The notes: generated by a model from the letters alone, not told the origin. A DNA stretch of 64,000 nucleotides from Candidatus Curtissbacteria bacterium (GCA_016183325.1 JACPEV010000003.1:82000-145999); one strand, 5' to 3'; shown: positions 477-34,801, numbered from the stretch's first letter. A program made the numbers and translations.

Positions 477-639
477 AGTTCTTCCCACGTCTTTGAGTAT
501 TTTTTGATAAGTTTTTTAGTTAACTTAGCAATTTTAGGATCAATTGTATTTGGACGTTTTGGTGCTTCTTGATCTACAGAATTTTTCCTCATTAATGATT
601 TGTGCATATGTTTCTTTTCTACTTACTTTGCGCTGACTT

Positions 640-765
640 GTCAACACACATCCTGTTGTCATTGCGAGGAGGTCTGCAGAATGCAGACCGACGAAGCAAT
701 CTATTTTAAGTGAGATTGCTTCGCTTCGTCGAGCCAGACTCGACTTCGCTCGCAATGACAAAGTA
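640..765. repeat. GC-rich structured palindromic element: outer inverted repeat GTCATTGCGAG…CTCGCAATGAC enclosing three internal hairpins
   Basis: Internal hairpins gtctgcaGAAtgcagac, gaagcaatc…gattgcttc and gtcgag-ccaga-ctcgac; shares the CGACTTCGCTC word with the wider repeat family. Confidence 0.6.
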
Positions 766-805
766 GTTATCTACTCTATAAATTTGAAAGGTGGAGAGGA
801 TTTGG

Positions 806-1552
806 TCAGTTTTGAAACTTGATTGTGTTGACCATTTGCATAAAGATTTGATCCCATTTCTCTTGTTCTTCTTTTGAACCTCCTCGGGACACAAATCCCA
901 AAATTTTACCATTAAAGGTTACATCGACCTTGTGATAATAAAAAATATCATGACCCCCTTCGGGATCTGTACCATCAACCACATATTCGATGGCAGGATT
1001 GCCATCTATCGTTAGATTTCTGATTTTGTAAAGAGGCGCTTTTGCAGCATGAAATTCCTCAATTTTTTCTCCTGGCTCTAAATTTAGTATTTTATAATAT
1101 TCATCGTAATTTTCTGTTACGCTAAAGCCGATTACTCCCCCAACCTTAGAATTATCGTTGGGCATAAATTGTAAAAACGCACCGCCGGTAGTTAAGGACT
1201 GTGGATGTTTAAAGCAGAATTTATCTTGAGAGTCTTTATAAGTAATCCAGTTTGCTGTGCCAGGAGTATTCCTTGGCTCGCATTCAAAATCTTCAATTTT
1301 ACTTTGGTGGTCTGTTTTGTCGGTTTGACGACTTGACGTTGGCTGTACAGAAGGTGATGGGTCAATAGTTTCATCTCTTGCGTTTCTAATGAGGAAGCTG
1401 TTGAAGAAGAGAGTGCCGGCGACAACAAGACAAATTATTGCAAGGCCGATTAGAACAGGTGGGGTTAGATAGCCCCTACTCGCCGTGAAGCGGCGAAGCG
1501 GGCCGGTTTTAGTATTCGGGGGAATCTGATAAGAAAACCAGGCGCGCCGCAT
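806..1552 (-). CDS. membrane-anchored/secreted hypothetical protein, paralog 2 of the MRRxxYLTPPVLIGL family
   Basis: ORF track frame; the likely start is the internal Met (MRRAWF…) because the 5' region including the N-terminus is duplicated at 1-290; single N-terminal TM helix. Confidence 0.5.
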   Translation of the reverse strand: MRRAWFSYQIPPNTKTGPLRRFTASRGYLTPPVLIGLAIICLVVAGTLFFNSFLIRNARDETIDPSPSVQPTSSRQTDKTDHQSKIEDFECEPRNTPGTANWITYKDSQDKFCFKHPQSLTTGGAFLQFMPNDNSKVGGVIGFSVTENYDEYYKILNLEPGEKIEEFHAAKAPLYKIRNLTIDGNPAIEYVVDGTDPEGGHDIFYYHKVDVTFNGKILGFVSRGGSKEEQEKWDQIFMQMVNTIKFQN

Positions 1553-1680
1553 AGTTTTATCATTCCACTTTTTGCTTTTTAAAACAAACTCTCGGTGGGT
1601 AATGGGTGGCATACCAAAATCACGCAATTGCGCGAAATTGGTATGCAGAGGAAGTTTAGGGAATGTATACAAATATCTGA

Positions 1681-1816
1681 CGATCGTCAAGAAATTGTAT
1701 AGATTGAATTTATGAAAGAAAAAGTTTTTATTGCGTGTGTTTTTTGATCGATCGTCAAGAAATTGTATAGATTGAATTTATGAAAGAAAAAGTTTTTATT
1801 GCGTGTGTTTTTTGAT
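1681..1816. repeat. tandem duplication (2 x 68 bp) of the unit at 409-476; the distal copy overlaps the doc stop codon
   Basis: Direct reading: cgatcgtcaagaaattgtatagattgaatttatgaaagaaaaagtttttattgcgtgtgttttttgat appears twice. Confidence 0.85.
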
Positions 1817-2176
1817 CCAATCGGCGATTTGGTCTAGCGACGGCTTTTCGTTTTCTGCCCATAAGGCAAAATCCACTTTTTCTCTTTGTGTTGCCACAAG
1901 TTCGTAGCCATTTAAATACAAAAAATATTCTAAAGTTCCCAGTGCGGTTCTTTTGTTTCCATCGATAAATGGATGATTTGATGAAAGTGATTGAATAAGG
2001 GCTGCAGCTTTTAGAAAAATGTCGGGATAGAGATCTTCTCCACCAAAAGTAGCTTGAGGCCGACCTAGCGCTGACGATAAGAGATCCCAATCTCGAACAC
2101 CTTGAGAACCACCAGTTTTTTCTGTAACACGAAGATGGATGGCGACGACTTCGTCTAGGGTGGGATATTTGATCAC
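1796..2176 (-). CDS. doc: Doc (death-on-curing) toxin, Fic/Doc family
   Basis: Fic/Doc motif HPFIDGNKRTA; 126 aa; overlaps the upstream antitoxin by 4 bp. Confidence 0.85.
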   Translation of the reverse strand: MIKYPTLDEVVAIHLRVTEKTGGSQGVRDWDLLSSALGRPQATFGGEDLYPDIFLKAAALIQSLSSNHPFIDGNKRTALGTLEYFLYLNGYELVATQREKVDFALWAENEKPSLDQIADWIKKHTQ

Positions 2177-2397
2177 TTATTGGCCAGCTCTTCTAAAGCT
2201 GGGCGATTTTTCTCGATGTACTTATCGACCCATTCTAAAAAAGCAGGAGTCAAAGTGGTTTTTCGAGCTTTTTTGACAGGCTGAATATCAACTTCAGCAG
2301 ATTGACCAACCTTCAGATTCTTTTCTTGAAGAACCTTTTTGGGAATAATGACGGCTACAGAATTACCGACACGAATTATCTTTTGAATCACGTTCAC
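2173..2397 (-). CDS. phd: AbrB/MazE-fold antitoxin partner of Doc (Phd-like)
   Basis: N-terminus IIRVGNSVAVIIPKKV is a typical SpoVT/AbrB swapped-hairpin; position and 4-bp overlap with doc. Confidence 0.7.
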   Translation of the reverse strand: MNVIQKIIRVGNSVAVIIPKKVLQEKNLKVGQSAEVDIQPVKKARKTTLTPAFLEWVDKYIEKNRPALEELANK

Positions 2398-2449
2398 CCT
2401 GAGTTTGTCGAAGGGTTAGTACAATGTTATAACAAAATTTGGGGTTTTG

Positions 2450-2812
2450 TCAATCACTTGATGATTTGGTTGTTTCTAAACATTTTGTGAGCTCTTCCGT
2501 TGGTGTCCAGCCGCACTTACCATCGGGCTGTAGTTCGCATCTGGCATTTTTATAACAAGCAAATTCTGCTCGCCACTCGCAAGTAGTGATTACATCTTGA
2601 TCGGAGCAAACTTGGCTGCTACAACCGGTTATTTTGCAACCATCGGTTGACGTGGCTTTAGATTTCGGACTTGATTGAGCAAAAGGTGTTGGGATTGGTT
2701 GGGTTTTGACATTTTTGACGAGGAGGCTGTGGAGAAAAAAAGTTCCTGCGACGAAAAAGCAAACGAGCGCAAGGCCGATTAGGACAGGAGGGGTGAGATA
2801 ACCGCGGCGCAT
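2450..2812 (-). CDS. membrane-anchored Cys-rich hypothetical protein, paralog 3 of the MRRxxYLTPPVLIGL family
   Basis: N-terminus MRRGYLTPPVLIGLALVCFFVAGTFF matches paralogs 1 and 2; the upstream catagtttaatcat is also conserved; C-terminus has 8 Cys. Confidence 0.55.
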   Translation of the reverse strand: MRRGYLTPPVLIGLALVCFFVAGTFFLHSLLVKNVKTQPIPTPFAQSSPKSKATSTDGCKITGCSSQVCSDQDVITTCEWRAEFACYKNARCELQPDGKCGWTPTEELTKCLETTKSSSD

Positions 2813-14808: not shown

Positions 14809-14845
14809 GACTTGTTACTATTATACTAGTATATTAGTTTTTGAA
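14809..14845 (+). promoter_or_regulatory. sigma70-like promoter (TTGACT-17-TATATT) overlapping the 12-bp palindrome TATACTAGTATA
   Basis: Read directly; a second copy of attatactagtatatt-r-gtttt lies at 15283-15310. Confidence 0.5.
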
Positions 14846-14847: not shown

Positions 14848-15279
14848 GTGACGCGGGTTTCAAGAATAAAATTGCACCCAAAAAAGATTGCAGAAATACG
14901 AGAATACTTCTCTTTCCTGATTGCTTCCCTTAACAATTCGGGTGAGATAGAAAATTTTCTTGATGGTTTTTTAACAGATGAAGAGAAAGTTATGCTTTCA
15001 AAAAGACTGGTTCTTTTGATGATGTTGAAACGGGGATACTTATCAGGCGAGATTGCGTCGGTTCTTTCGATGAGCTACGAGAGTATAAGAACATATAAAA
15101 ACCTGCTGGTTACCAGAAATAACCAGTTTCATAAGACGATCAAGATACTTGTTAAGAGAGATGGAGCTAAGGAATTCTGGCAAAAGGTGGACAAAATATT
15201 GAAACCTCTGGACTTGGCTTTACGTTCTGGAACTGATATGAAGGCCCGAGCGAAGCTCTACTCTGGTGACTGGAACTAG
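14848..15279 (+). CDS. TrpR/YerC/YecD-family small DNA-binding protein
   Basis: Resembles the Trp-repressor-like YerC family (SxxEIAxxLxxS HTH). Confidence 0.6.
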   Translation: MTRVSRIKLHPKKIAEIREYFSFLIASLNNSGEIENFLDGFLTDEEKVMLSKRLVLLMMLKRGYLSGEIASVLSMSYESIRTYKNLLVTRNNQFHKTIKILVKRDGAKEFWQKVDKILKPLDLALRSGTDMKARAKLYSGDWN

Positions 15280-15313
15280 TACCATTATACTAGTATATTG
15301 GTTTTAAAGACAT

Positions 15314-16407: not shown

Positions 16408-16599
16408 AAGCTAAGTTTACCAAATTTAGGGGATTGCATAATTACGAACGTAAAACCATCATCAATTTTGCCATGGCGAATTGTGTGATGGCAATTTCAA
16501 TTTGTAAACATTGATGGAGATATGAACTTATGTTAGTTTCTTCCAGTAAATTTATAGCCAATGAGCTTGTAGGCCAGTTTGGCAGCTGGAAAATCTTGG

Positions 16600-17499: not shown

Positions 17500-18384
17500 T
17501 CATAAGAATCTGTATCCTATAAGTTTGTAGGCCAGTTTGGCGGCAAGAAAATCGGGGGCTTGCTGTCCGGGGATGGGGTCAAGCTCGACGATATCGCAGC
17601 CAACAATGTTGTGTTTTTGGGCAACTTTTTTAAGGAGTGCAAGGGTTTCATACCAACCAATTCCACCGGGTTCGGGTGTACCAACAGCTGGCATGATAGA
17701 TGTATCAAAAGCATCAAGATCAAATGTTAGATAGACATTTTTCTTGAGAGTGGCAAGAATTTTACTGACTGGAAGTTCAGGAGCATAAAAAATATTATTT
17801 AATTTGGATTTTTTGAAAAATTCGGCCTCTTCTTTGCTGTGACTGCGAATACCAACATGAGTAACGGGAATTTTTAGATCTTCAACGACTCTGCGCATAG
17901 TTGTGGCATGCGAGTAAAGAGTGTCTTCAAATTCAAACCGAGAGTCAGTGTGGGCATCAAGTTGAAGCACAGAAAGATTGCGGTATTTTTGGGCGCAGGC
18001 AGCGGCACCGGCAAGGGCCAGGGAGTGCTCGCCGCCGAGCATTAAAGGAAATTTGTTGTCTTTGAGTATGCCTGCGATGATATCTGTCACTCGATCGATA
18101 GTTTCTTTGGGAGAATTTTTGGAGACTTGAACCTCGCCAAGGGTAAAGACACCAACCTCTGACGAGTCTTTTTTGAGCTCTTCATCCCAAAGTTCCAGGT
18201 GTCTTGAGGCCTCGATTATTGCTCGAGGCCCATCTTTGGTGCCGGATTTCCAGTAAGTGGTGGAATTATACGGGACTGGCAAAACGACAACTTTTGATGA
18301 GTCGTAATCTTGAATGTCTAGACCCAAGAAATTAAAGGGTTCTGTTTGGGGGTAGTTAAAATTAGGTCCCCGTAAATCCGCCAT
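17500..18384 (-). CDS. speB: agmatinase/arginase-family ureohydrolase
   Basis: GGEHS, DAHTD and DLDAFD metal-binding motifs. Confidence 0.8.
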   Translation of the reverse strand: MADLRGPNFNYPQTEPFNFLGLDIQDYDSSKVVVLPVPYNSTTYWKSGTKDGPRAIIEASRHLELWDEELKKDSSEVGVFTLGEVQVSKNSPKETIDRVTDIIAGILKDNKFPLMLGGEHSLALAGAAACAQKYRNLSVLQLDAHTDSRFEFEDTLYSHATTMRRVVEDLKIPVTHVGIRSHSKEEAEFFKKSKLNNIFYAPELPVSKILATLKKNVYLTFDLDAFDTSIMPAVGTPEPGGIGWYETLALLKKVAQKHNIVGCDIVELDPIPGQQAPDFLAAKLAYKLIGYRFL

Positions 18385-19533: not shown

Positions 19534-19735
19534 TTTAGTTAAAGCTATTTACGTTCGATAATAGCTGAGAAATATTTTTTTGTAAAGCAGAGAAAAAATT
19601 CATATTAAATTTTGGGGGCAGATAAATGTTGCGGTCCTTCGACTCCGTTCTGCAAATGCAGAACTTCGCTCAGGATTGTGAACAGAAGACAAATTTATTA
19701 TTGGAATCTTTTCACAGTTTGTCAATGGGGAAATT

Positions 19736-19770
19736 AGAGCTTTTTGGTGTAGATGGCTTGGAGCAAGCCT
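19736..19770. repeat. ~35-bp direct repeat flanking the VapBC cassette (second copy at 20507-20541)
   Basis: gagctttttggtgtagatggcttggag(c/t)aagcct found on both sides. Confidence 0.8.
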
Positions 19771-20203
19771 AATTATCGTAATCTTTTAAACTTTTTACTA
19801 ATTTACTTTTTGACTTTTTGATTAAATTATCATCTGCGGTATATAGAGGAGATTTTAGATATTCAGCTAAAGCTACATAGGCTGCGTCATAAGAAGAAAT
19901 ATCAAGATCAATGGCTTTTTCAAGAGAAGTTTTAAATAAATCAACTGAAGAGTGCACAAGAAAGTTTAAATCAAGAAATCCCTGGTAGGCTTTGATCGCT
20001 ATATGTTTATTAATTCTTAAGCGTTTAATTGCTGTTTTTAGCAAATTGCTAACTTCATAAAAAATTAAGGTCGGTACTGATACGATCACTTTTCGATTGA
20101 CAAAATCTTCTTTTATTTTTAAAGCGTAACTTTTAAACGTTTCATCCGGGAGGAACCATTTAGCTATAACTGAAGAATCAAGAACTACATTTTTGACAAT
20201 CAC
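19769..20203 (-). CDS. vapC: PIN-domain toxin VapC
   Basis: LDSSVIAKWF…YDAAYVALA PIN pattern. Confidence 0.75.
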   Translation of the reverse strand: MIVKNVVLDSSVIAKWFLPDETFKSYALKIKEDFVNRKVIVSVPTLIFYEVSNLLKTAIKRLRINKHIAIKAYQGFLDLNFLVHSSVDLFKTSLEKAIDLDISSYDAAYVALAEYLKSPLYTADDNLIKKSKSKLVKSLKDYDN

Positions 20204-20481
20204 TTTTGGTCTTTTTTGCTTTCAGAAAGTAATGCTTGAGGATTAATTTTTTGATCTTTAAGGCTTTCCCTAAACTCGTCAATTTTAGCCATTGCTTGTT
20301 TTTGGCTATCCAAATTTGAGATTCTGCTTAAACCTAGAGCTATTACGTCATTGATTGTCCTTTGAAGTGACGTCCCTTGATTAAAAGCGAGTAATCTTGA
20401 TTTGTCAAACAAGTCCTTTCTAATTCTAATGGTGGTTCTGACTGCGTTTTGCATTGTGTTTTGAAAGTAACATATAGGCAT
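20200..20481 (-). CDS. putative antitoxin for the adjacent VapC
   Basis: Position, size and 4-bp overlap only. Confidence 0.45.
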   Translation of the reverse strand: MPICYFQNTMQNAVRTTIRIRKDLFDKSRLLAFNQGTSLQRTINDVIALGLSRISNLDSQKQAMAKIDEFRESLKDQKINPQALLSESKKDQK

Positions 20482-20506
20482 ATAGATGTCAAGATGTCTT
20501 ATTTCT

Positions 20507-20541
20507 AGAGCTTTTTGGTGTAGATGGCTTGGAGTAAGCCT
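20507..20541. repeat. second copy of the direct repeat flanking the VapBC cassette
   Basis: See 19736-19770. Confidence 0.8.
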
Positions 20542-20746
20542 TGTTTAATTTTCTTCAAAGAGTTTGGATAATTTTGTATCAAAAGTTTTGGGAAGATTTA
20601 GATTATGGATAGATTTGGGTGACTGGATGTCATAGAGCCGAATTGCCATAGGGTTTACTCCAGCTTCTTGAGACAAAGGTGGCAATTTGAGAAGTTTATT
20701 GGCCGATGAGTTTGAAACATCACGCCAAGAGATCCTAAAACCAACA

Positions 20747-20775
20747 TTGACATATAGGTACTTTATGAGTATTAT
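20747..20775 (+). promoter_or_regulatory. sigma70-like promoter TTGACA-17-TATTAT upstream of fic
   Basis: Read directly. Confidence 0.45.
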
Positions 20776-20798
20776 ATAGGCAGTAATTATAATCTACG

Positions 20799-21845
20799 AT
20801 GTACACACCCAGGTTCACAATTACGCCTAAAATAACCCAAGATATAGAAAAAATAGGGGTAGTTTTTGGGTATTTTAGGGCAGTTCAACTTCCCGAAAAT
20901 TATAGAAGAGAGCTAGTATCGAAAGTGGCTGTAGAGACTGTCCACGCATCAACTGCAATTGAAGGGAATACCCTGACACAAAAACAAGTAGGTGAGGTCT
21001 TAAGTGGAATACCGGTAACCGCACAAGAAAAGGAAATAAAAGAGGTAGAAAACTACAATAAAGCCTTGGTAAGTATTGAAAAATTCGGTAGGCAAAAAGG
21101 CTTTAAGGTTGGTGAGCAAACTGTAAAGGGAATACACGCAACACTTCTAAAAGATATAGATAACGAGATTGCTGGTAAATATCGGACAAGGCAAGTATAT
21201 GTCGGGGATTATATGCCTCCAGAGCATTACAAAGTTCCAACTTTGGTGCAAGAATTGGTTTCTTGGATAAACAACCCAAATCCAGAAAACTTATCCCCAA
21301 TTTTACTTGCTGGTATTGCCCACTACCAATCCGTCGCCATCCATCCTTTTGAAGACGGCAATGGCAGGATAACAAGACTTTTAACGACCTTAATACTTAT
21401 CCAAAACGACTACGACATGGTTAGTTTTTTTGCCCCTGAAAGTTTTTACAACAGAAACAGAAAGGCATATTATGAGGCATTAAGTTCGGCTGATAAATAC
21501 GGAGTTCGTGGGCAACCAGACTTAACCAGATGGCTTGAGTATTTTGTGTCGGGCATGCTAATTGAGGCTGAAAGGGCAAAATCCAGGATAGAAGAAATGT
21601 TGCAAAAAAAAAGTACATTTGGCAGGCAGGACTATATAAGCGATAATCAAAGAAAAATACTCAAACTGGCTACCCAAAAAGGTACGATTAAAACGGCAGA
21701 TGTATTACAACTCACCGGTTTAAGCAGAAAAGGTGCCTACAACGCGGTTGAAAAACTGGTACACATTAGATTATTGGAAAGTGTTGGAGTAGGGAAAGGA
21801 ACATATTATAAAATTACAGATAAAGGATTGGAATATGTCAGATAG
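20799..21845 (+). CDS. fic: Fic-family protein (AMPylase-type) with a C-terminal winged-helix
   Basis: Canonical Fic motif HPFEDGNGRITR. Confidence 0.85.
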   Translation: MYTPRFTITPKITQDIEKIGVVFGYFRAVQLPENYRRELVSKVAVETVHASTAIEGNTLTQKQVGEVLSGIPVTAQEKEIKEVENYNKALVSIEKFGRQKGFKVGEQTVKGIHATLLKDIDNEIAGKYRTRQVYVGDYMPPEHYKVPTLVQELVSWINNPNPENLSPILLAGIAHYQSVAIHPFEDGNGRITRLLTTLILIQNDYDMVSFFAPESFYNRNRKAYYEALSSADKYGVRGQPDLTRWLEYFVSGMLIEAERAKSRIEEMLQKKSTFGRQDYISDNQRKILKLATQKGTIKTADVLQLTGLSRKGAYNAVEKLVHIRLLESVGVGKGTYYKITDKGLEYVR

Positions 21846-21950
21846 GGAGTACGTAGATTATCTTGTTAAAATCTGGGGTACTGTCTTAAATGTGTCTGAT
21901 CTTTTTCAAATGAATTTTTAGGGGGATCCAGCCATTGGCCGGCGCTTACT

Positions 21951-22400
21951 TTAATAAATGCTTCTTAAATATTGCAATAGCTCACCAGGAAGTATTACTC
22001 TAAGCCCGAAATCTTGTTGAATCTTTTCTATTTTATAATCCTTGGTATTGAAGGTAACTAAAAATTTTGCTTGAGCTGCTTTTGCTCCTGCTACGATATA
22101 AGCATCTTTAATGTCATTGGTGTAGCTGGCAAATCTATCCAAAATTTTCTCTTTGTCTAACTTTATTTTGATAATTTTTAATCTGGTTTTTAATATTCTT
22201 TCTAGCTTATTTTTATCAATTCCTAATTTATCAACAGTTCTATTCAGCTCTTCATGAGAAAAATTCGAGATAAAAGATCTTAAATCGGCATTATTCACAA
22301 TAAGATTGGAGGCACCGGTTTGTGAAAGCAGTGAAGAAATTACAACATCCGAATCGATAAAGACTTTTATTTGCAAGAAGGCCTTGCTTATTTTCGCCAC
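21951..22400 (-). CDS. PIN-domain toxin
   Basis: IDSDVVIS…DAYIVAGA…TFNTKDY. Confidence 0.7.
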   Translation of the reverse strand: MAKISKAFLQIKVFIDSDVVISSLLSQTGASNLIVNNADLRSFISNFSHEELNRTVDKLGIDKNKLERILKTRLKIIKIKLDKEKILDRFASYTNDIKDAYIVAGAKAAQAKFLVTFNTKDYKIEKIQQDFGLRVILPGELLQYLRSIY

Positions 22401-22663
22401 ATTTTTGCTCTTACCTTGGAAAGCTCTTTTTCTATTTTGGCAAAGTTTTGCAAATCTTCTTGTTGTGCTCTATAGATATCCTCATCTAAACCTGTAAATA
22501 CAAAGGTCAGGGAGCTAGCCGGAATTCTGTAAACTTTACCGATTCTTTTGGCCACAATATCTCCCCGATTAATCAACTGATAAACCGTATTTTTACTAAG
22601 CTGAAGCATACTCGCTACCTGCTCCGGAGTGTAAACTTTTGGCAAAACTTGATTACTAATCAT
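22388..22663 (-). CDS. HTH (excisionase/MerR-like) antitoxin
   Basis: QVASMLQLSKNTVYQLINRGDI HTH; overlaps the PIN gene. Confidence 0.6.
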   Translation of the reverse strand: MISNQVLPKVYTPEQVASMLQLSKNTVYQLINRGDIVAKRIGKVYRIPASSLTFVFTGLDEDIYRAQQEDLQNFAKIEKELSKVRAKMWRK

Positions 22664-22707
22664 AACTATATTGTATTAAACATGACAAAACATGTCAATA
22701 GACAAAG

Positions 22708-23562
22708 CTAAAGTTTTTTGGTGAATTGGGTTTGGATCCAGCCTTGTTTGCCAGCCTCGCCAGCTCGGCTAGGCGGGCCGTCGAATTTGATTTTGATCCA
22801 ATCGCCGGTTTCCTGGATGATTTCCAGTTGATCGCCAGTTCGGACTCTGCCGACTTCGGTGGAAGTTGTTTGAGGTTCCTGGCGAACCCTTAAAAACCCT
22901 TGTGGTGCTTTTACGACCTCAATTTTTAAGATCTGAGGTGCGCTGACTTGCGGTTTATTAATGCCTTTGGCAATTTCAGAAGCCAGGCTAACGTCGGCAA
23001 CAAGCTGATAACGGCTGGCGGTTTTAATGGCAAATTCCCTCTGCACATAGCCTGTTTGAGAAAGAAGAACTTTGTGCTCACCGTCCTCGATATCGGTAAT
23101 CAGAAGAGGGGTTTTACCAATGTACTTGCCATCAATGGTAACGTCTGTCTCTGTAGGCTGAGAGGAAATAAAAAGACCTTTTTCCTGAGGTCTCAGCCAT
23201 AAGTTCTCTCCTGATTGGGCAAGAAAGTTGTTGGCAAGTTCGCGATTGACGACGGTAAGGGTACCGGAAGTTAAGGTTATTTTGTCCACAAAGCTTGCCT
23301 CAGACGCAGTGATTTTTAAAAGGTACTCACCGGCCTTGAGCTGTTCTGAAAAATAGGGAGTTTTTCCTAAGTGTTTACCGTCTAAAAACACTGAGGCTTC
23401 CGGGGTCGAAGTGACTTGGAGTGCAGCTGGTTTTTGGGTGCCGATGAGAGTGCAGCCGGAAAGAAGCAGAACAATTGACAATTGACAAGTGACAAAAAGT
23501 AAGCTTTTAAGAAACAATTTTCCATTTTCCCTGCGGGCCAGAGGCCCCGGGCCGGAGGCCAT
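22708..23562 (-). CDS. lipoprotein with PEGA-domain repeats and a C-terminal SH3b-like domain
   Basis: Lipobox LLSGC after RR/K; repeats V(F/T)(L/I)DGK(H/Y)(L/I)GKTP. Confidence 0.6.
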   Translation of the reverse strand: MASGPGPLARRENGKLFLKSLLFVTCQLSIVLLLSGCTLIGTQKPAALQVTSTPEASVFLDGKHLGKTPYFSEQLKAGEYLLKITASEASFVDKITLTSGTLTVVNRELANNFLAQSGENLWLRPQEKGLFISSQPTETDVTIDGKYIGKTPLLITDIEDGEHKVLLSQTGYVQREFAIKTASRYQLVADVSLASEIAKGINKPQVSAPQILKIEVVKAPQGFLRVRQEPQTTSTEVGRVRTGDQLEIIQETGDWIKIKFDGPPSRAGEAGKQGWIQTQFTKKL

Positions 23563-23806
23563 TTTCCATTTTCCATTTAGGGTGGGCATTGGGATAAAGT
23601 TAACACTTCGACTTCGCTCAGTGCAAGCTATGGTGATGGCAAAACGATAATCTAGGATTATTATGGGATTTGACTTTTAGGGTGAAATCTGCTAGAATTT
23701 GCCTTCGTAAAATTCCCACTATGGGTCGGCTTAGACGACCCATGATTCTCAGAAAGTTCTATTGTGGGATTTTACGTGGGCAAGTCAAACTTGCCTTTGA
23801 AAAAAC

Positions 23807-25162: not shown

Positions 25163-25828
25163 ATGGATGAATCCTTTATTAGTAGAATTTTATCGAAAAT
25201 GGCCCTGGCAATTATAGTAGTGGCTGTGGCGGATCTTTTGTTTTTAAATTATTTAGTCATAAAAGGCCAGAGGCAAGCCTTGCCGGCAAACGATTCAGCC
25301 GGAAGCGAGACCAGAGAGGCGGAAAGAAAGCTCGAGGTAATAACCCCTTCTCCTAGCGACTTGGGTTCTCCGTCACCTCCTGTCGAACCTAGGACTGAGA
25401 TTAAGACCGTGGAGACGAAAACGATAGTGGAGAAGGAGGCTCAAACCATTGTGCAAACGGCTCAGAAAGAGATCTTTATACCGATGGGCTCAGGAGCAAC
25501 TAAAAGTCGTGAATTTGCAGATTTAACTAGTACAGATGTAAAGATTGATACTTCTAAGTACTCCAATGTCGAATCAGTGGTTTTTGAGGCTTCGATTTGG
25601 GTTGAGGGTGGTAACGGAGCTGCTTATGCTCAATTGTATAACGTTGAGGATAAAACTGGGTACTTCGAAAGCCAGATTAGCAATAACACTGGATCCGCAG
25701 CTTACAAGACTTCTGGGAAGCTGCAGCTTCCCAATGGACAGAAGACTTACAGAGTGAGGGCTAAAACTGATATTGTGGAGTTTGCGGCGCATGTGGAGAA
25801 TGCTAGAATTAAGATTACTTTGAAGTGA
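25163..25828 (+). CDS. membrane-anchored hypothetical protein
   Basis: N-terminal TM only. Confidence 0.45.
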   Translation: MDESFISRILSKMALAIIVVAVADLLFLNYLVIKGQRQALPANDSAGSETREAERKLEVITPSPSDLGSPSPPVEPRTEIKTVETKTIVEKEAQTIVQTAQKEIFIPMGSGATKSREFADLTSTDVKIDTSKYSNVESVVFEASIWVEGGNGAAYAQLYNVEDKTGYFESQISNNTGSAAYKTSGKLQLPNGQKTYRVRAKTDIVEFAAHVENARIKITLK

Positions 25829-29343: not shown

Positions 29344-29718
29344 TTAAATAATTTTTAGATCATTAATCTTCTCAAAATCTTTTAGATTCAAAGTTGATAA
29401 AAGTAAAGAATGTTTGATCGCTGTGGCCGCAATGATAGCATCAATTAGTGAAACTCCTTGATTATGAACTTTAATGTATCCCGCTTTTTTAGATATGTCC
29501 GGTGACAATGAAATTATTTGCAAACCGGAAAGTGTTCGCTCTACAGTTTTTTTGACTTCAATTTTCTCCCAGATACTTTTTCCTGCATAAAGTTCTGTGT
29601 GGGTAATTATAGAAATAAAAAGCTCTTCATCCGTTAGTTTATAAAATAGACTGTTTTCTTTATCCGGTCGACGAAGGAAATCTATGACAACGGAAGTATC
29701 CAGAAGAAGTCTCTTCAC
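29344..29718 (-). CDS. vapC: PIN-domain toxin VapC
   Basis: LLDTSVVIDFL… PIN. Confidence 0.8.
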   Translation of the reverse strand: MKRLLLDTSVVIDFLRRPDKENSLFYKLTDEELFISIITHTELYAGKSIWEKIEVKKTVERTLSGLQIISLSPDISKKAGYIKVHNQGVSLIDAIIAATAIKHSLLLSTLNLKDFEKINDLKII

Positions 29719-29990
29719 GGATTTTGTCTTTTGAGTCTATCTTCAATTTCTTCTCTATTTCTTTTGATTTCTTCCAAATCTATGTCTACAGGTTTCATTT
29801 TAAGTAAACTTTTCTTCCATTCTTGTTTATCTCTAATCTTTTCTTCCTCTATTGGTTCGGCAATAATCTTTCCGTTGTCTGTCGAGACTTTAAGCCAAAA
29901 ATCGCTGGAGAGGCCGATAGATTCTCTAATCTTTTTGGGAATAGTTATTTGCCCCTTGCTGAATGATTTGACGAATCTGACTACGTCCAT
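29715..29990 (-). CDS. AbrB/MazE-family antitoxin
   Basis: KGQITIPKKIRESIGL; start probably at the internal Met. Confidence 0.7.
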   Translation of the reverse strand: MDVVRFVKSFSKGQITIPKKIRESIGLSSDFWLKVSTDNGKIIAEPIEEEKIRDKQEWKKSLLKMKPVDIDLEEIKRNREEIEDRLKRQNP

Positions 29991-30097
29991 ACTGAATTTC
30001 AGTATATATTGAAATTGTTCAAATTGCAAGGTTTTTGTAAATTTTGAGGAAAATTGACAACGTCCTACAATAAGCTATACGCTTAAAATAGCTGCCA

Positions 30098-31093
30098 ATG
30101 AAAAAAGGGTTCGCCCAATTTGTCCCTTTAGTTGCTATTGCCTTTGCCATTTTAATTGGCCTATCCATCATCAGTGCCGACAAAACCACCAACAATCAAG
30201 ACAACATCTTAAGCAGCTCCGATAAAGACAATGGTTCCTCGGGCTCCGGCTCATCTGGCTCGGGTTCGTCTGACTCAGGCTCCTCGGGATCTAGCGACTC
30301 GGATTCATCAGATAACCCATCCACTTCTACCTCCAGTGGTCCTGGCTCAGCCGACACCACCCGAATCGAATCCAATACAGGCGACACCAGAACCAGAATC
30401 GAAACCAGGCCCGGCGAAACCAGAATTGAAACTAGAAACGAACAGGGCCGTTTCGAAACAAGGTTAAAAGACGATAAAGAAGAAACCAAAATCAGAACCG
30501 GTAATTTGAGAATTGAATTGAAAAGAGAAGGCGACAAAATTGTCACCACGGTTAAAAATGAAAACGACGAAGAAGTTGAGCTGGAAGATGAAGAAACAGA
30601 CGAACTTTTAGAGGATGCCTCCGCCAAGCTGGAAGTCGATGGCGTCAAATTTGCCACCGATTCTGGACGTCTGGACATTATTCAAAATGGCCGGCGCGTC
30701 AGAATTAATTTCCCGCTTTCTGTCAATCCGACAACCGGCGAACTTTTTGTCACAACCCCTGCAGGCGAAAAAGTAGTCGCCATCTTGCCGGATACTGCTA
30801 TCCAAAATATGCTCTCGGCCGGTATTTTGACTAGAGTCGAGCCGGAGCCAGAACCCTTACCCTCCCCATCACCGGGTGCCACCGAGTCAGCCACTGTCGT
30901 AGAAACCGGCATTGAGCTCACCCAACTTAACAATCAGCCGGTCTATATCATTAGCGGAATCAAGAATAAAAGCTTCCTAGGACTCGTGCCTGTAGATCTT
31001 AAACTAAAAGTTGTGGTCTCAGCCCAAAACGGCCAAGTTTTACAAACCCGTCAGGGCCTCTTGACAAGACTTCTCGATTTCTTCTCGATTTGA
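30098..31093 (+). CDS. secreted Ser/Gly-rich repeat protein
   Basis: Signal peptide, SSGSGSSGSGSS tract, TRIETR-type repeats. Confidence 0.5.
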   Translation: MKKGFAQFVPLVAIAFAILIGLSIISADKTTNNQDNILSSSDKDNGSSGSGSSGSGSSDSGSSGSSDSDSSDNPSTSTSSGPGSADTTRIESNTGDTRTRIETRPGETRIETRNEQGRFETRLKDDKEETKIRTGNLRIELKREGDKIVTTVKNENDEEVELEDEETDELLEDASAKLEVDGVKFATDSGRLDIIQNGRRVRINFPLSVNPTTGELFVTTPAGEKVVAILPDTAIQNMLSAGILTRVEPEPEPLPSPSPGATESATVVETGIELTQLNNQPVYIISGIKNKSFLGLVPVDLKLKVVVSAQNGQVLQTRQGLLTRLLDFFSI

Positions 31094-31301: not shown

Positions 31302-32150
31302 CTAATATTTTGGAGGCCAGAAGACACCTAGAACTAGGAAAGTTGGATTCGGAAATTGTGTTCCCACAATTAAGTAAGAATCCCGCTTTTCGCTCCACAT
31401 TTCATCTAACCACTTTTGTTTTATCTTTTTTAAAACAATATCCATCGAAAATGGTTTTTCTTCCATTAACCTTAAATAAAGCATAAAAATCTCCCAATCA
31501 AATATGGACAACTGATGGCCTTTGCACCTCGAATCATTACAAATAAACTCATATATGAACTTATAAGGAATCTTTTTAAGCGTTTTGGGCTGTTGTCCAA
31601 ATAATACCAATTGGCTTTGAACCCTCTGATGTTTACTGCTCCATTGCGCTGAGTCAGCTTTTATTTTTAAGTCAATAATCTTCTTAGGTTTAAAAATACC
31701 GAGTGAAACTCCGAACTTTTTATAATCATTCGCAATCTCTTCTAAAGAATTGTAATGGATTGTTGGGATGACAATCTCTTTTCTTTGGAGCCAGCTTTTG
31801 TCTTTTTTAGTGTCAAGTGGTTGGCCCTCAGGTTTTATGGATTCCACATCTGGACGATAACTGTCGACTCTAAAATCCTTGAGATTTTTCTCTATTTTTA
31901 CCTTTACCCACTGGTATTTTTTATACCATTTTGGATATTGCATATAGCGGTAGTTGACAGGATATAGTCTGATCCATCTCTCATTTCTGGTGATACCCGC
32001 GGTGCAAACGATTTCCTTATAGGAAGTGGAAGGGCGGGGGTAAGTTTTTACAACTATTAATATTTCTTCTTCGTGGGATTTTAAATCGGGATAACCCGCA
32101 GGTTGTTGTTCAGTTTTAGCAGTTCGCTTGCTATTATCGATCTGTGACAT
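31302..32150 (-). CDS. hypothetical protein (282 aa)
   Basis: ORF; 70-nt out-of-frame overlap with the upstream DUF488 gene. Confidence 0.45.
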   Translation of the reverse strand: MSQIDNSKRTAKTEQQPAGYPDLKSHEEEILIVVKTYPRPSTSYKEIVCTAGITRNERWIRLYPVNYRYMQYPKWYKKYQWVKVKIEKNLKDFRVDSYRPDVESIKPEGQPLDTKKDKSWLQRKEIVIPTIHYNSLEEIANDYKKFGVSLGIFKPKKIIDLKIKADSAQWSSKHQRVQSQLVLFGQQPKTLKKIPYKFIYEFICNDSRCKGHQLSIFDWEIFMLYLRLMEEKPFSMDIVLKKIKQKWLDEMWSEKRDSYLIVGTQFPNPTFLVLGVFWPPKY

Positions 32151-32618: not shown

Positions 32619-32897
32619 ATGAAAATATTTCAAGAACCTGACAAAAGACTTCATCTGGTAAGTTCAACGGTAAAGAATTTTGATGAAGCTAAAAAAATAA
32701 CCCAAGAGCTCGTTGAGGTGACAAGAGGTTTGGATAGACCTTATAAACTCTGGATTGGGATGGCTGCTGTCCAAATTGGGTACAAAAAGAGAATAATTTT
32801 GTACAAGAAGGGTATCCTCAGGCTACGCCTTCGGCGAGTACGTAATTATTCAATTCACCCACGGGTAAAAACCCGTGGTACTCTTGAACAATTATAG
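32619..32897 (+). pseudogene. def: peptide deformylase N-terminal fragment (truncated def)
   Basis: First ~65 aa align to the PDF N-terminus including G(M/L)AAVQ(I/V)G motif 1; the EGCLS and HExxH motifs are absent. Confidence 0.55.
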
Positions 32898-33006
32898 ACC
32901 ATATTGATGGAATACTAATATCAGATATAGGGAAAAAGGTTTTTTAGAGTTCGAAAATCGGCCCCAAATTGATTTTTCCCATTAATCTTTCTGCTAGAAT
33001 GGCTTC

Positions 33007-33291
33007 GTGGATAAAAGGCAATTGGAAAACTTGGTAAGAAAGGAGATTACTGAAGCTGATCCTATTGGACTAATTTCGATGGGAGCGCCAAAGGATGAGT
33101 ATGACACAGAGGTGAAGGAAATTATCGCGAGGATAGACACCTGTAAGAGTACGACAGATCTGCAGGAATTAATCTACGGTATTTTTGTCAAAATGTTCGA
33201 TGAAAAGATCGCAGGACGGAGAGAAACATATCAAAACTTGGCCGGCAGAATATTTAGTAGTCTAAAAACTAATTCGACTTGGACCCATTGA
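33007..33291 (+). CDS. hypothetical protein
   Basis: ORF only. Confidence 0.4.
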   Translation: MDKRQLENLVRKEITEADPIGLISMGAPKDEYDTEVKEIIARIDTCKSTTDLQELIYGIFVKMFDEKIAGRRETYQNLAGRIFSSLKTNSTWTH

Positions 33292-33321
33292 TTTTTGTGT
33301 TACAATGTACTACAATTTATA

Positions 33322-33648
33322 ATGTCAAAATCAAGTGTCGCAAAAATTGATATTAATGTTGACACTTTGATTGTTGAAGAAGACAGGCTAGGGCATATTG
33401 CAAAGCATGGGGTGACTTTAAAGGAAATTTTAGAAATTATTTCGCAAGATTACATTTATATCGAAGGTAAACACGGACGTTGGTTATTGATAGGCAAGAC
33501 GAAAATGGGGCGTTTCCTAACAGTTGTTGTTGGCTCACGTCCAGAGAAAAACACACGTGGTTTAGTAACTGCGAGACCATCAAGCAGAGAAGAGAGAAGC
33601 TTTTATAAGGAGTTTACTTTACAATATGAGTATGACAAAATCAATTAA
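33322..33648 (+). CDS. brnT: BrnT-family (DUF497) toxin
   Basis: AKHGVTLKEI… and a C-terminus matching the BrnT pattern. Confidence 0.65.
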   Translation: MSKSSVAKIDINVDTLIVEEDRLGHIAKHGVTLKEILEIISQDYIYIEGKHGRWLLIGKTKMGRFLTVVVGSRPEKNTRGLVTARPSSREERSFYKEFTLQYEYDKIN

Positions 33649-33928
33649 AGTTAAAAATATTAAAAATGGTGGAATCAAACCAATTTCACCATTTAAAACT
33701 TTGGAGGAGGAAGCTAATTTTTGGGACACCCATTCGGCGGTTGATCAGATTAACAAGGGTACTTTAGTCGGTTTCCATCAAGCTAATAAGACTAAAACTT
33801 TAACTATTCGTGTCCAACCCGAGGATTTGCAATCTTTACGCGAATTGGCTTTCAAGCAAGGTATTGGTCCAACTACGCTCGCTCGTATGTGGTTACTTGA
33901 AAAACTCCACGAATCCAAAACGAAATAA
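33626..33928 (+). CDS. brnA: BrnA antitoxin
   Basis: EEEANFWDTHSAVD hallmark plus a C-terminal RHH. Confidence 0.75.
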   Translation: MSMTKSIKVKNIKNGGIKPISPFKTLEEEANFWDTHSAVDQINKGTLVGFHQANKTKTLTIRVQPEDLQSLRELAFKQGIGPTTLARMWLLEKLHESKTK

Positions 33929-33970
33929 GTTGGAAAATCGTCCCGAGTTTTTCTGATATAATTTCCTCTT

Positions 33971-34081
33971 ATGATTAAAAGGAAATCTACATGTGGTTTA
34001 TGTAAACCTCACAAAAAGTGGAAGAGAAATGATACTAAAGAAAAACAACGTATTGCCTTGGAGATCAAAGGAGAAATTTAG
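33971..34081 (+). CDS. 36-aa basic CxxC mini-protein (possibly leaderless)
   Basis: ATG 33971 is preceded at -11 by ctgaTATAAT; below the ORF-track length cutoff. Confidence 0.25.
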   Translation: MIKRKSTCGLCKPHKKWKRNDTKEKQRIALEIKGEI

Positions 34082-34125
34082 TTTGACGATTATTGTATAA
34101 TCTTGTAACCTAAAAGAAGGTTTAA

Positions 34126-34317
34126 ATGTCTAAAGTTGATCTGAGAAAGATTCTAAAAAAACATAAATCAGGATGGTTGGCATTAACTGCGGACAACAAG
34201 AAAGAAGTGGCTTCCGCAAAGACTCTGCGAGAGGTGCTTTCTCGCGCAAGGGCGAAAGGTGTTGAGAGGCCAAGCGTTTTAAAGGTGCCTAAATTGGATT
34301 CTTACTATGTCGGTTAA
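34126..34317 (+). CDS. small DUF5678-like protein
   Basis: Good SD (aagaagg); 63 aa; stop overlaps the next start (TAATG). Confidence 0.45.
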   Translation: MSKVDLRKILKKHKSGWLALTADNKKEVASAKTLREVLSRARAKGVERPSVLKVPKLDSYYVG

Positions 34318-34772
34318 TGGATTTTGATTATGCATTAGTTACCGACTGGCCCAGACATAAACCCCGCCAGCGTTATCTTCCCTGGATAAATATAGGTATT
34401 AGAAAGATTGGGAAAGAAAAAACTATTTGGCCATTAGGACTAGTTGATTCCGGGGCCGATCTAACTATAGTTGATAGAGAAATTGGTGACGAGCTGGGTT
34501 TCGATTTCAAAAAGGCTAGAAAAAATTTTATTACCGGTTTTGGTGGAGCTAAAGTAGAAGTTTTATTGACAGAGGCAGAATATGTTATTGATGACAATAA
34601 AGGCAAACGTCCAATAATTTATCGTGATCTCATTGGATTTACAAAAGGTCAATTTCCTCTCTCACATCCGCAACAAACTGCTATATTTGGAACTATTGGT
34701 TTATTTAGGAATGTTCACGTAGAGTTTGATTTCCCAAGAAATATCCATATAGAAAAATTCAGAATTAGATAA
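34317..34772 (+). CDS. retropepsin-like aspartic protease
   Basis: Active-site LVDSGADLTIV (D-S/T-G-A). Confidence 0.7.
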   Translation: MDFDYALVTDWPRHKPRQRYLPWINIGIRKIGKEKTIWPLGLVDSGADLTIVDREIGDELGFDFKKARKNFITGFGGAKVEVLLTEAEYVIDDNKGKRPIIYRDLIGFTKGQFPLSHPQQTAIFGTIGLFRNVHVEFDFPRNIHIEKFRIR

Positions 34773-34801
34773 AAATTAGTTCGAAAATCGTCCCGACTGA
34801 T

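What the first reader, a model, noticed from the sequence alone, without database searches (positions are those of the whole stretch)
19736..20541. A VapBC cassette bounded by 35-bp direct repeats
The toxin-antitoxin pair at 19769-20481 is flanked on both sides by gagctttttggtgtagatggcttggag(c/t)aagcct. This looks like a target-site duplication or att-type boundary, implying the TA pair arrived as a discrete mobile cassette.
Basis: seen in the sequence. Interest (0 to 1): 0.55.

Follow-up and report, generated by a model that had tools for sequence, protein, structure and literature searches.

The report
Toxin-antitoxin cassettes stacked behind duplicated gene ends
The repeat flanking this toxin-antitoxin pair is a copy of the last 11 codons of a neighbouring gene, and it marks one unit of a stack of small cassettes inserted one after another at that gene's end in an ultra-small (CPR) bacterium, with no recombinase gene in sight.

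Summary
In detail: 36-nt direct repeats (35/36) at 19735-19770 and 20506-20541 bracket a vapBC operon. The repeat is not an arbitrary target. It copies the 3' end (11 codons plus stop) of the PEGA/SH3 gene 2.2 kb away, which carries a third copy at 22709-22744 (27/36, stop in register). About 25 related Curtissbacteria loci have no insert after this gene. One has a homologous vapBC there and one a MazE-PIN pair. A second lineage (L018/L059) has three different TA pairs, each followed by a copy of the gene end. Copy 2 is preceded by the last ~53 nt of a PIN toxin gene, and that tail plus site is 83% identical to the L059 cassette. Three other loci show the same architecture with unrelated site sequences (def and agmatinase ends in the window, CTP synthase end in L060). 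No integrase was found among ~45 window ORFs. Best reading: att-type (Campbell-type) insertion of small circular cassettes at gene-end copies, forming an integrase-less array like CIME accretion or an integron. The enzyme is unresolved, and no strain-level empty site for vapBC was found.

The parts
22708..23589 (-). PEGA/SH3 lipoprotein-like gene, the anchor gene whose 3' end is the recombination site
   Evidence: Pfam PEGA E 2e-21 and SH3_3 E 2e-10. Orthologs lie in conserved synteny (M23 peptidase | PEGA/SH3 | 177-aa membrane protein | 150-aa protein) in about 30 Curtissbacteria loci.
22708..22749 (-). Site copy 0: the live 3' end of the gene (KQGWIQTQFTKKL*)
   Evidence: It aligns ungapped, with stop codons in register, to the two repeats (27/36). 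The gene's last 36 nt find exactly those two copies as best matches in the window (26/36 versus next-best 22; 0 of 300 shuffles reach 26).
21951..22663 (-). HTH_17 (22388-22663) plus PIN_3 (21951-22400) toxin-antitoxin pair, the unit nearest the gene
   Evidence: Pfam HTH_17 E 3e-13 and PIN_3 E 4e-11. A promoter-like TTGACA-17-TACAAT lies at 22698-22670, directly after the PEGA/SH3 stop.
20799..21845 (+). Fic/DOC gene in the opposite orientation inside the island
   Evidence: Pfam Fic E 1.5e-20. Promoter-like site at 20747-20775.
20547..20599 (-). Remnant: last ~53 nt of a MazE-PIN-type toxin gene (…KTFDTKLSKLFEEN*), truncated upstream
   Evidence: Window 20508-20599 aligns to L059 10151-10242 (intact MazE-PIN toxin tail plus site) at 83% over 93 nt, E 1e-22, versus ~70% for the backbone PEGA/SH3 gene. 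There is no Pfam hit.
20505..20546 (-).
   Evidence: On the minus strand it reads KQGLLQAIYTKKL*.
20200..20481 (-). vapB-like antitoxin gene (84 aa from the ATG at 20454) with its own upstream region (perfect -35 TTGACA at 20488-20493, weak -10 TACTTT)
   Evidence: 4-nt overlap with vapC. Pipeline gene calls give 84 aa. It is 55% identical to the L027 antitoxin and 76% to the L018 remnant. Homologous cassettes share the TTGACATCTTGATGACAAGATGCTAA promoter/operator. The promoter is my reading of the sequence; the tool's scan did not list it.
19769..20203 (-). vapC PIN-domain toxin gene; its stop codon overlaps the first 2 nt of site copy 1
   Evidence: Pfam PIN E 1.2e-7. The closest homologs elsewhere are at most 63% identical.
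19734..19770 (-).
   Evidence: It is followed by TTTCCCCATTGACAAAC, which matches what follows the PEGA/SH3 stop in the island-free relative L008 (TTTCCCTCTTGACAAAC, 15/17).
19534..19733 (-). Original downstream flank: promoter region of the deoxyhypusine synthase-agmatinase operon
   Evidence: Promoter-like TTGACA-17-AATAAT at 19725-19697. The region is homologous to the L008 and L007 DS upstream regions.

Best explanation
The 36-mer copies the last 11 codons plus stop of the PEGA/SH3 gene. That gene end, and each earlier copy of it, serves as an attachment site where small circular cassettes (own promoter, a toxin-antitoxin operon and one copy of the site) insert by a single crossover (Campbell-type, att x att). 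Each insertion leaves the host gene intact and leaves a copy of the gene end distal to the new unit, so repeated insertions build an array: gene end | HTH-PIN_3, Fic, truncated MazE-PIN | copy 2 | vapBC | copy 1 | original downstream operon. vapBC most likely inserted into an already non-functional distal copy. Copies 1 and 2 share the same two departures from any live gene end (Trp to Leu, Ile to Leu), which explains their 35/36 identity. The cassettes encode no recombinase, so the crossover must be catalysed in trans. I put about 0.4 on a site-specific recombinase encoded elsewhere, as for CIMEs or integron cassettes. I put about 0.3 on host homologous recombination acting on the 24-47 nt of identity. 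Shown: the origin of the repeat, the three copies, the array in a second lineage, empty loci in relatives, and a cassette-end-plus-site junction shared between two genomes. Inferred: circular intermediates, the order of events and the enzyme.
For: (1) The repeat equals the gene end. It aligns ungapped with the stop in register at 27/36, and it gives the only two strong matches of the gene's last 36 nt in 64 kb. All orthologs end GKQGW[IV]..QYTKKL* in the same register.
(2) Locus-level empty sites exist. In about 25 loci the next conserved gene follows within ~20-200 nt. L008 and L016 have DS-agmatinase directly after the stop, and the flank after copy 1 matches the L008 post-stop flank.
(3) A second array exists in L018/L059/L061: Phd-PIN, VapB-PIN and MazE-PIN, each followed by a copy of the gene end, four copies in all.
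(4) L027 has a homologous vapBC (55%) starting 14 nt after the stop, and L041 has a MazE-PIN pair there.
(5) All four 'CCATC'-type copies are cassette-associated (window copies 1 and 2, L059 r2 and r3). None of 31 live gene ends at the DNA level has this type, and only one of 120 orthologous proteins (P0191) ends ...QAIYTKKL.
(6) The toxin tail and site junction AATTAA|RCAARGCT is the same in the window and in L059, at 83% DNA identity versus 70% for the backbone, while the variable part of the site differs. That is what a fixed crossover joining one cassette to two different resident gene ends would give.
(7) L059's terminal copy matches the window's live gene end 18/18 in its central part, so site variants circulate between lineages.
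(8) The same architecture occurs at other gene ends. For agmatinase, the two copies differ 1:4:10 by codon position. This suggests the distal copy came from a different, once-coding allele rather than from an in-situ duplication.
(9) The precedent is tandem accretion of integrase-less att-flanked elements at the 3' end of a target gene (PMC5704250).
Against: No integrase or recombinase was found among ~45 ORFs across the window, and none lies in the L059-L061 arrays. At least four unrelated site sequences are involved (PEGA/SH3, def, agmatinase and CTP synthase ends), which a single site-specific enzyme could not serve. The left edge of the copies varies (about -26 to -41 nt from the stop), whereas a fixed crossover predicts a fixed edge. 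The copies share no conserved dyad symmetry. No circular form or strain-level empty site was observed. L027's vapBC has no distal copy. Homologous vapBC cassettes at three other loci have no gene-end repeats, so the site belongs to the locus and is not an intrinsic part of this TA family.
Confidence: 0.6

Rival explanations
1. No dedicated recombinase is involved. Fragments from relatives that carry a gene's 3' end plus its downstream neighbour genes circularise and integrate by RecA-mediated single crossover within the short homologous gene end. Only insertions with short repeats (below about 50 nt) persist, because longer repeats recombine the insert out again.
For: The same architecture appears at four or more loci with unrelated site sequences, and with non-TA cargo such as the 294-aa methyltransferase-like gene after agmatinase. 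The distal copies diverge in an allele-like way: 10 of 15 agmatinase differences fall at third codon positions, and the CTP synthase copy keeps frame and stop. No recombinase was found. The left edges of the copies vary. Repeat lengths of 24-47 nt lie near the minimum for RecA-dependent recombination (my own knowledge).
Against: Single crossovers on 24-40 nt are very inefficient. The same toxin-stop/site junction occurs in two genomes whose site variable parts differ. A fixed crossover explains this more easily than independent homologous events. Circularisation of imported DNA is hypothetical.
Confidence: 0.25
2. The repeats are a true target-site duplication. Insertion of vapBC duplicated 36 nt of the target, either through widely staggered cuts (as when Cas1 duplicates a CRISPR repeat) or through a replication template switch that returned upstream of its departure point.
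For: Copies 1 and 2 are 35/36 identical and share two changes (TGG to TTG/TTA, ATC to CTC) that no live gene end has. This fits duplication of an already decayed copy. The repeat edges are sharp.
Against: There is no transposase or Cas1-like gene, and no terminal inverted repeats at the cassette ends. 36 nt exceeds known transposon TSDs (my own knowledge). The third copy and the L059 copies are not duplicates of the resident gene end but variants found as live ends in other lineages. The agmatinase copies diverge mostly at synonymous positions, which argues against in-situ duplication there.
Confidence: 0.08
3. The units are what is left of full-size integrative elements (prophages, ICE/IME-like islands) that each integrated with their own integrase at the gene end and then decayed until only the addictive TA operon and the att scars remained (CIMEs in the strict sense).
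For: The published accretion model is integration, decay to a CIME, then a new integration at the att site that includes the gene end (PMC5704250). Tycheposon islands show stacked elements and partial tRNA scars (bioRxiv 10.1101/2020.12.28.424599). TA operons resist loss (my own knowledge). There is a truncated toxin remnant upstream of copy 2 and a VapB remnant in L018.
Against: At least seven units at three loci in two genomes are each 0.7-1.0 kb and consist of just a promoter, two or three genes and a site. None holds a fragment of an integrase, excisionase or structural gene. Repeated decay to exactly this minimal form seems unlikely.
Confidence: 0.12
4. The repeat is a functional DNA or RNA motif, such as a terminator hairpin, a UP-element-like A-tract for the next promoter, or an operator. 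It would then recur because it is needed between operons, not because of recombination.
For: The window copies contain a 6-bp hairpin, GGCTTG-GAG-CAAGCC. At copy 2 it scores as a terminator-like site on the + strand. Every copy lies 10-15 nt upstream of a TTGACA box.
Against: The hairpin is not conserved in the L059 copies or in the live gene end. The count of terminator-like sites equals the shuffle expectation (2 versus 1.9). There is no Rfam match. The motif is absent from other intergenic regions of the window and from the public collections. Its register-perfect homology to a coding gene end is unexplained by this reading.
Confidence: 0.03

Closest known systems
CIMEs and tandem accretion of integrative elements at the 3' end of a target gene (ICESt1/ICESt3 family and streptococcal IMEs; review PMC5704250)
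   Same: Units lack integration genes and are flanked by direct repeats that include the end of a protein-coding target gene. They stack in tandem by successive events at the att copies, and the target gene stays intact.
   Different: Here the units are minimal (0.7-2.2 kb; promoter, TA operon and site) with no trace of decayed integrase or transfer genes. No helper element or integrase was seen. The host is a CPR bacterium. The same pattern occurs at several gene ends with unrelated sequences.
Integron cassette arrays, including chromosomal arrays rich in TA cassettes and integrase-less attC clusters (CALINs) (my own knowledge)
   Same: Small one- to three-gene cassettes lie in series, with one recombination site at the 3' end of each. 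TA cassettes have their own promoters. Sites within an array are near-identical (copy 1 versus copy 2), as with species-specific attC sites.
   Different: There is no intI and no attC architecture: no GTTRRRY/RYYYAAC boxes, and the site is 24-41 nt rather than 55-140 nt of imperfect palindrome. The site is a copy of a host gene's coding end, and one unit (Fic) is inverted.
Tycheposons of Prochlorococcus (bioRxiv 10.1101/2020.12.28.424599)
   Same: The host has a streamlined genome. Successive integrations at one site push older elements outward and leave partial copies of the target gene as scars through the island.
   Different: Tycheposons carry tyrosine recombinases and target tRNA/tmRNA genes. 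Here the target is a protein-coding gene end and no recombinase is present.
pdif (Xer) modules of Acinetobacter plasmids (PMC6449649, PMC13141974)
   Same: Discrete small modules, often TA pairs, are bounded by short (28 bp) recombination sites and moved by a recombinase encoded elsewhere.
   Different: pdif sites have an 11-6-11 XerC/XerD layout and alternate in orientation. These sites are direct repeats without dyad symmetry, are chromosomal, and derive from a gene end.
VapBC type II toxin-antitoxin systems
   Same: A PIN-domain toxin is preceded by a small overlapping antitoxin gene with an autoregulatory-looking palindromic promoter region.
   Different: Nothing unusual in the genes themselves. 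The antitoxin matches no curated family directly.

Membership tests
Type II toxin-antitoxin, VapBC | Toxin with a PIN domain | tested here: met
   PF01850 E 1.2e-7, 32.8 bits versus cut-off 23.6. NCBI names the identical protein a VapC family toxin.
Type II toxin-antitoxin, VapBC | Small antitoxin gene immediately upstream, overlapping or abutting the toxin gene in one operon | tested here: met
   The 20200-20481 (-) ORF overlaps vapC by 4 nt. The pair is conserved in L027, L055, L057 and L058.
Type II toxin-antitoxin, VapBC | Antitoxin belongs to a recognised DNA-binding antitoxin family | tested here: inconclusive
   No Pfam or NCBIfam hit. It is 30% identical over 44 aa to an L018 antitoxin that matches PF09957 VapB_antitoxin at E 8e-4, below the cut-off.
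Type II toxin-antitoxin, VapBC | Toxicity that the antitoxin neutralises | not testable with these tools
   This needs an expression experiment.
Integron cassette array | Integron integrase (intI) next to the array, with attI | tested here: not met
   The gene upstream is PEGA/SH3. No Phage_integrase hit among ~45 window ORFs.
Integron cassette array | attC sites: 55-140 nt imperfect palindromes with R''/R' boxes (RYYYAAC ... GTTRRRY) at cassette boundaries | tested here: not met
   The sites are 24-41 nt. The boundaries read CTCTAR|AAATAAG, |TTTCCCC, |ATTAACA and |CTACGCC with no GTTRRRY. Only a non-conserved 6-bp hairpin is present.
Integron cassette array | Serial small cassettes, each with one site at its 3' end | tested here: met
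   Window: 3 copies and 2 units. L059: 4 copies and 3 units.
CIME / tandem accretion at a gene 3' end | Flanking direct repeats (attL/attR) that include the 3' end of the target gene, which stays intact | tested here: met
CIME / tandem accretion at a gene 3' end | No integration or transfer genes inside the unit | tested here: met
   The units contain only TA or Fic genes.
CIME / tandem accretion at a gene 3' end | Derivation by decay from an integrase-bearing ICE/IME, and a related helper element with a matching integrase | tested here: not met
   No integrase fragments in the units. No integrase-bearing element at this site in 45 related loci. The rest of the source genome could not be searched.
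CIME / tandem accretion at a gene 3' end | Excision or integration by recombination between the att copies | tested here: inconclusive
   The evidence is only indirect. Logan contigs from two samples end exactly at the repeat edges (L068 at 20506, L006 at 19764), although the longest exact shared stretch (29 nt) is below k=31. Reads were not available.
Transposon with target-site duplication | Short TSD (2-15 bp), terminal inverted repeats and a transposase (or a non-autonomous copy of such an element) | tested here: not met
   The repeat is 36 nt. There are no inverted repeats at the unit's ends, no transposase, and no other copy of the unit in any collection.
Xer/dif module | 28-bp site with two 11-bp arms of partial dyad symmetry around a 6-bp spacer; modules in alternating orientation | tested here: not met
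   By inspection of the aligned copies, the conserved core CCATCYACRCCAAAAARCTCTAR has no dyad symmetry, and all copies are direct.
tRNA/tmRNA-targeting genomic island | The repeat is the 3' part of a tRNA or tmRNA gene | tested here: not met
   The nearest tRNA is at 45220 and the tmRNA at 57134. The repeat matches a protein-coding gene end.

The most novel reading that the evidence does not exclude
Curtissbacteria (CPR) genomes gain genes through a general, recombinase-less or trans-acting cassette system. Units of one to three genes, mostly toxin-antitoxin operons with their own promoters, are captured serially at the 3' ends of conserved genes. Each unit carries a surrogate copy of that gene end as its attachment site. 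The result would be integron-like arrays at many loci (PEGA/SH3, def, agmatinase, pyrG), with site variants and cassettes exchanged between lineages.
Probability: 0.3. Interest if true: 0.75.

Novelty: new variant of a known kind. Interest (0 to 1): 0.58.

Why it matters
CPR/Patescibacteria have tiny genomes, few recognisable mobile elements and few integrases, and how they acquire accessory genes is poorly understood. This 64-kb window shows three gene ends with duplicated-end scars around small inserts. One of them matches an array in a second lineage that carries different toxin-antitoxin cargo, and that lineage has a further case at its CTP synthase gene end. If this reflects a general cassette-capture route, by a trans-acting recombinase or by short-homology recombination, it would explain TA accumulation and hotspot variability in streamlined genomes. 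It would also give a simple sequence signature (a gene-end copy distal to an insert) for finding recent gene gains in metagenome-assembled genomes. If it is only decayed integrative elements, it is an ordinary extension of tandem accretion to a new phylum.

Tried and rejected
- **tRNA/tmRNA or known RNA:** none at or near the repeat.
- **Widespread motif:** the 24-mer core is absent from GTDB representatives, JGI metagenomes and IMG/VR. The degenerate cassette-type core is absent from IMG/VR.
- **Strain-level empty site:** exact-protein look-ups for VapC, DS and Fic returned only the same strain with the cassette. The 91% DS relative's contig stops 135 nt before DS, short of the site. No PEGA/SH3 ortholog is above ~70% identity.
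- **P0191:** its contig DNA (a live gene end of cassette type) was unavailable because the sample file is too large.
- **Repeat intrinsic to this vapBC family:** rejected. Homologs after a Mg-chelatase_C gene, before mreB and before rpsO have the same promoter/operator but no gene-end repeats.
- **L022 Fic (85%) as a same-site insertion:** rejected. It lies beyond the next two conserved genes.
- **Remnant upstream of copy 2 as a PIN fragment, protein methods:** inconclusive (9/13 residues, no Pfam hit). It was settled by DNA homology to L059.
- **Recombinase search:** ~45 ORFs scanned with Pfam, none found. ORFs 30098-31093, 31302-32150, 25163-25828, 806-1690 and 50750-51367 have no significant family.
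- **L004's unaligned ends:** these are Nextera adapter, not variants.
- **Homology-facilitated illegitimate recombination:** considered and set aside. By my reasoning it yields deletions rather than flanking duplications.
- **Literature searches for TA cassettes in CPR:** nothing relevant found.

Full report
**1. The observation.** The repeat is real. It is 36 nt long, at 19735-19770 and 20506-20541, with 35/36 identity, sharp edges and no similarity in the flanks. These are the only matches in the window at up to 3 mismatches, and none is expected by chance. Between the copies lies an operon on the minus strand. The 19769-20203 product is a PIN-domain toxin (Pfam E 1.2e-7, above the curated cut-off). 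The upstream ORF is 84-93 aa (20200-20481) and overlaps it by 4 nt. That ORF matches no curated family. It does resemble a weakly VapB-like antitoxin of a related locus.

**2. What the repeat is.** On the minus strand both copies read GLLQAIYTKKL followed by a stop. The PEGA/SH3 gene 2.2 kb upstream on that strand (22708-23589) ends GWIQTQFTKKL plus stop. Its last 36 nt align to the repeat without gaps and with the stop codons in register, at 27/36.
- Searching the whole window with the gene's last 36 nt returns exactly the two repeat copies as best matches (26/36 in that register). The next best match is 22, and 0 of 300 shuffles reach 26.
- `repeat finder` recovers the three-copy family independently (D8).
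- All orthologs of this gene end GKQGW[IV]..QYTKKL in the same register.
So the repeat is a copy of this gene's 3' end, and the window holds three copies, not two.

**3. Context in relatives.** The host is a Candidatus Curtissbacteria (CPR/Microgenomates) bacterium. In about 30 related loci the backbone is M23 peptidase | PEGA/SH3 | 177-aa membrane protein | 150-aa protein, usually with only 20-200 nt after the PEGA/SH3 stop.
- In L008 and L016 the deoxyhypusine synthase-agmatinase operon follows directly. The sequence after the L008 stop (TTTCCCTCTTGACAAAC) matches the sequence after copy 1 in the window (TTTCCCCATTGACAAAC).
- The 3-kb stretch 19771-22707 is therefore an insertion between the gene end and its original downstream flank.
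- It holds HTH_17-PIN_3, Fic in the opposite orientation, a remnant, copy 2, vapBC and copy 1.
- The three best promoter-like sites in the island lie just after the gene's stop, upstream of Fic, and just after copy 1.

**4. A second array.** L018 is one lineage, seen more completely in L059-L064, whose PEGA/SH3 protein is 68% identical to the window's. It has this layout: gene end | Phd-PIN | copy | VapB-PIN plus a VapB C-terminal remnant (76% to the window's VapB) | copy | MazE-PIN | copy | polyamine/hypusine operon.
- Each copy is followed within 10-15 nt by a TTGACA box and the next operon.
- L027 has a vapBC 55% identical to the window's, starting 14 nt after the stop, but with no distal copy. 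L041 has a MazE-PIN pair there.
- A profile of the gene end finds extra copies only in the window and in the L018 lineage.

**5. Clues to the mechanism.**
- (a) The copies that carry CCATC[TC]AC are all cassette-associated: window copies 1 and 2 and L059 r2 and r3. All 31 live gene ends at the DNA level have Gln/Thr-Tyr codons at that position instead. Among 120 orthologous proteins only P0191 ends ...WIQAIYTKKL. L059's terminal copy instead matches the window's live gene end, 18/18 in the centre. Site variants therefore circulate between lineages and are not fresh duplicates of the resident end.
- (b) Window 20508-20599 aligns to the L059 MazE-PIN toxin tail plus its site at 83% over 93 nt (E 1e-22), against ~70% for the PEGA/SH3 gene itself. 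In both genomes the toxin stop joins the site at the same nucleotide (AATTAA|RCAARGCT), while the variable part of the site differs. A fixed crossover joining one cassette to two different resident ends would give this result.
- (c) Copies 1 and 2 share two changes that no live end has (Trp to Leu, Ile to Leu). This suggests that vapBC entered an already non-functional distal copy.
- (d) The left edges of the copies vary (about -26 to -41 nt from the stop), and no dyad symmetry is conserved.
- (e) No integrase or recombinase was found among ~45 ORFs across the window, nor in the L059 arrays.

**6. The pattern is not unique to this locus.**
- In the window, a site starting at the stop of a frameshifted def gene has three copies (32948, 33928, 34778). 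They bracket DUF1871-BrnT-BrnA and then a DUF5678 plus 151-aa pair.
- The agmatinase 3' end (17507-17553) recurs at 16549-16595, 4 nt after the stop of a 294-aa gene that L008 lacks. The two copies differ 1:4:10 by codon position, which implies that the distal copy came from another, once-coding allele.
- In L060 the CTP synthase end (AFMEAVSKQV*) recurs distal to a MazE-PIN pair as AFMEPVSKAK**.
- The site sequences are unrelated to one another.
- Homologous vapBC cassettes at three other loci lack such repeats. The site therefore belongs to the locus, not to the TA family.

**7. Interpretation.** The best-supported reading is att-type, Campbell-type insertion of small cassettes at the gene end and its copies. 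This builds an integrase-less array. In form it resembles CIME accretion at a gene's 3' end (PMC5704250). It also resembles the stacked elements and partial-target scars of tycheposon islands and integron arrays, and it is reminiscent of pdif modules.
- It fails the defining tests for integrons (no intI, no attC), for Xer modules (no dif-like site) and for transposons (no TIRs, no transposase, 36 nt is too long).
- It fails the 'derived from a decayed ICE/IME with a helper integrase' criterion of CIMEs.
- The enzyme is unresolved. A trans-acting site-specific recombinase fits the shared junction. Host homologous recombination on 24-47 nt fits the multiplicity of unrelated sites and the lack of integrases.
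- A TSD-type duplication cannot be excluded for the copy 1 / copy 2 pair alone.

**8. Limits.**
- No contig shows the vapBC-free state of this strain.
- The repeat's 24-mer core is absent from GTDB representatives, JGI metagenomes and IMG/VR.
- Three Logan contigs from two samples end exactly at repeat edges: L068 at 20506, L006 at 19764 and L005 at 19755. The longest exact shared stretch, 29 nt, is below k=31. This hints at structural variants in the population, but SNPs or low coverage would also explain it. Only the reads can tell.

**9. Verdict.** It is a new variant of a known kind. Interest is moderate to fairly high, because the same signature at several loci suggests a general route of gene gain in CPR bacteria.

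Noticed in passing
window 32619-34796: A second cassette array. A 17-24-nt site (AGTTSGAAAATCGKCCCGA) has three direct copies at 32948, 33928 and 34778. The first starts at the stop of a def gene and the second overlaps the stop of the BrnA/CopG antitoxin gene. The units are DUF1871 + BrnT + BrnA (980 nt), then DUF5678 + a 151-aa protein with a DSGADL motif (850 nt).
   Followed up: partly
window 16549-16595 and 17507-17553: The agmatinase gene's 3' end (DFLAAKLAYKLIGYRFL*) is duplicated 958 nt downstream (DFPAAKLAYKLIGYKF...), 4 nt after the stop of a 294-aa methyltransferase-like gene that relative L008 lacks. Of the 15 differences, 10 are at third codon positions, so the distal copy looks like a gene end from another allele.
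   Followed up: partly
L060 4022-4045 and 5006-5029: In the L018-lineage genome, a MazE-PIN pair plus an 84-aa reverse ORF is bracketed by the CTP synthase gene's 3' end (AFMEAVSKQV*) and a distal in-frame copy (AFMEPVSKAK**).
   Followed up: partly
window 14816-14841 and 15280-15305: A 26-nt direct repeat (24/26) containing the palindrome TATACTAGTATA brackets a Trp-repressor-like 143-aa gene (14848-15279). In L027 that gene is absent between UbiA and the 150-aa gene. The first copy coincides with the gene's own promoter (TTGACT-17-TATATT), so this may be a promoter/operator duplication rather than an att scar.
   Followed up: partly
window 20506, 19764, 19755 (contigs L068, L006, L005): Logan contigs from samples SRR12113420 and SRR12113384 end exactly at the edges of, or inside, the repeat copies, although the longest exact shared stretch (29 nt) is shorter than the assembler's k=31. 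VapC was not found on a contig from SRR12113420. This may reflect excision, deletion or SNP variants in the population.
   Followed up: partly
window ~19640-19690: A hairpin-forming insert (core GTTCTGCATTTGCAGAAC) lies in the DS upstream region and is absent from the 91%-identical relative L007, which has 32 unrelated nt there. It accounts for much of the spurious 48-aa ORF 19626-19772 (+).
   Followed up: no
window 32619-32950: The peptide deformylase gene appears frameshifted. The N-terminal 65 residues match Pep_deformylase in one frame, and the C-terminal motif (DHIDGILISDIGKKVF*) is in another. This is either a pseudogene or a sequencing/assembly error.
   Followed up: no
window 53709-54731 and 45220-53745: An ORF with HTH and LAGLIDADG_3 domains overlaps or abuts a tRNA-Ser pair. 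The tRNA-Arg/Ser clusters are accompanied by repeated 86-101-nt modules (47831, 48475, 52557; 50315, 53493).
   Followed up: no
window 29344-30029: Another MazE-PIN toxin-antitoxin pair lies upstream of the HD/GroES/GroEL genes. With vapBC, HTH-PIN_3, Fic, BrnTA and the DUF5678 pair, that makes at least six TA-like modules in 64 kb of a CPR genome. No flanking gene-end repeat was found for this one.
   Followed up: partly
window 100-2810: Large direct repeats (141-216 nt, 75-100% identity) at about 1.27-kb spacing indicate two or three tandem paralogous genes near the start of the window.
   Followed up: no
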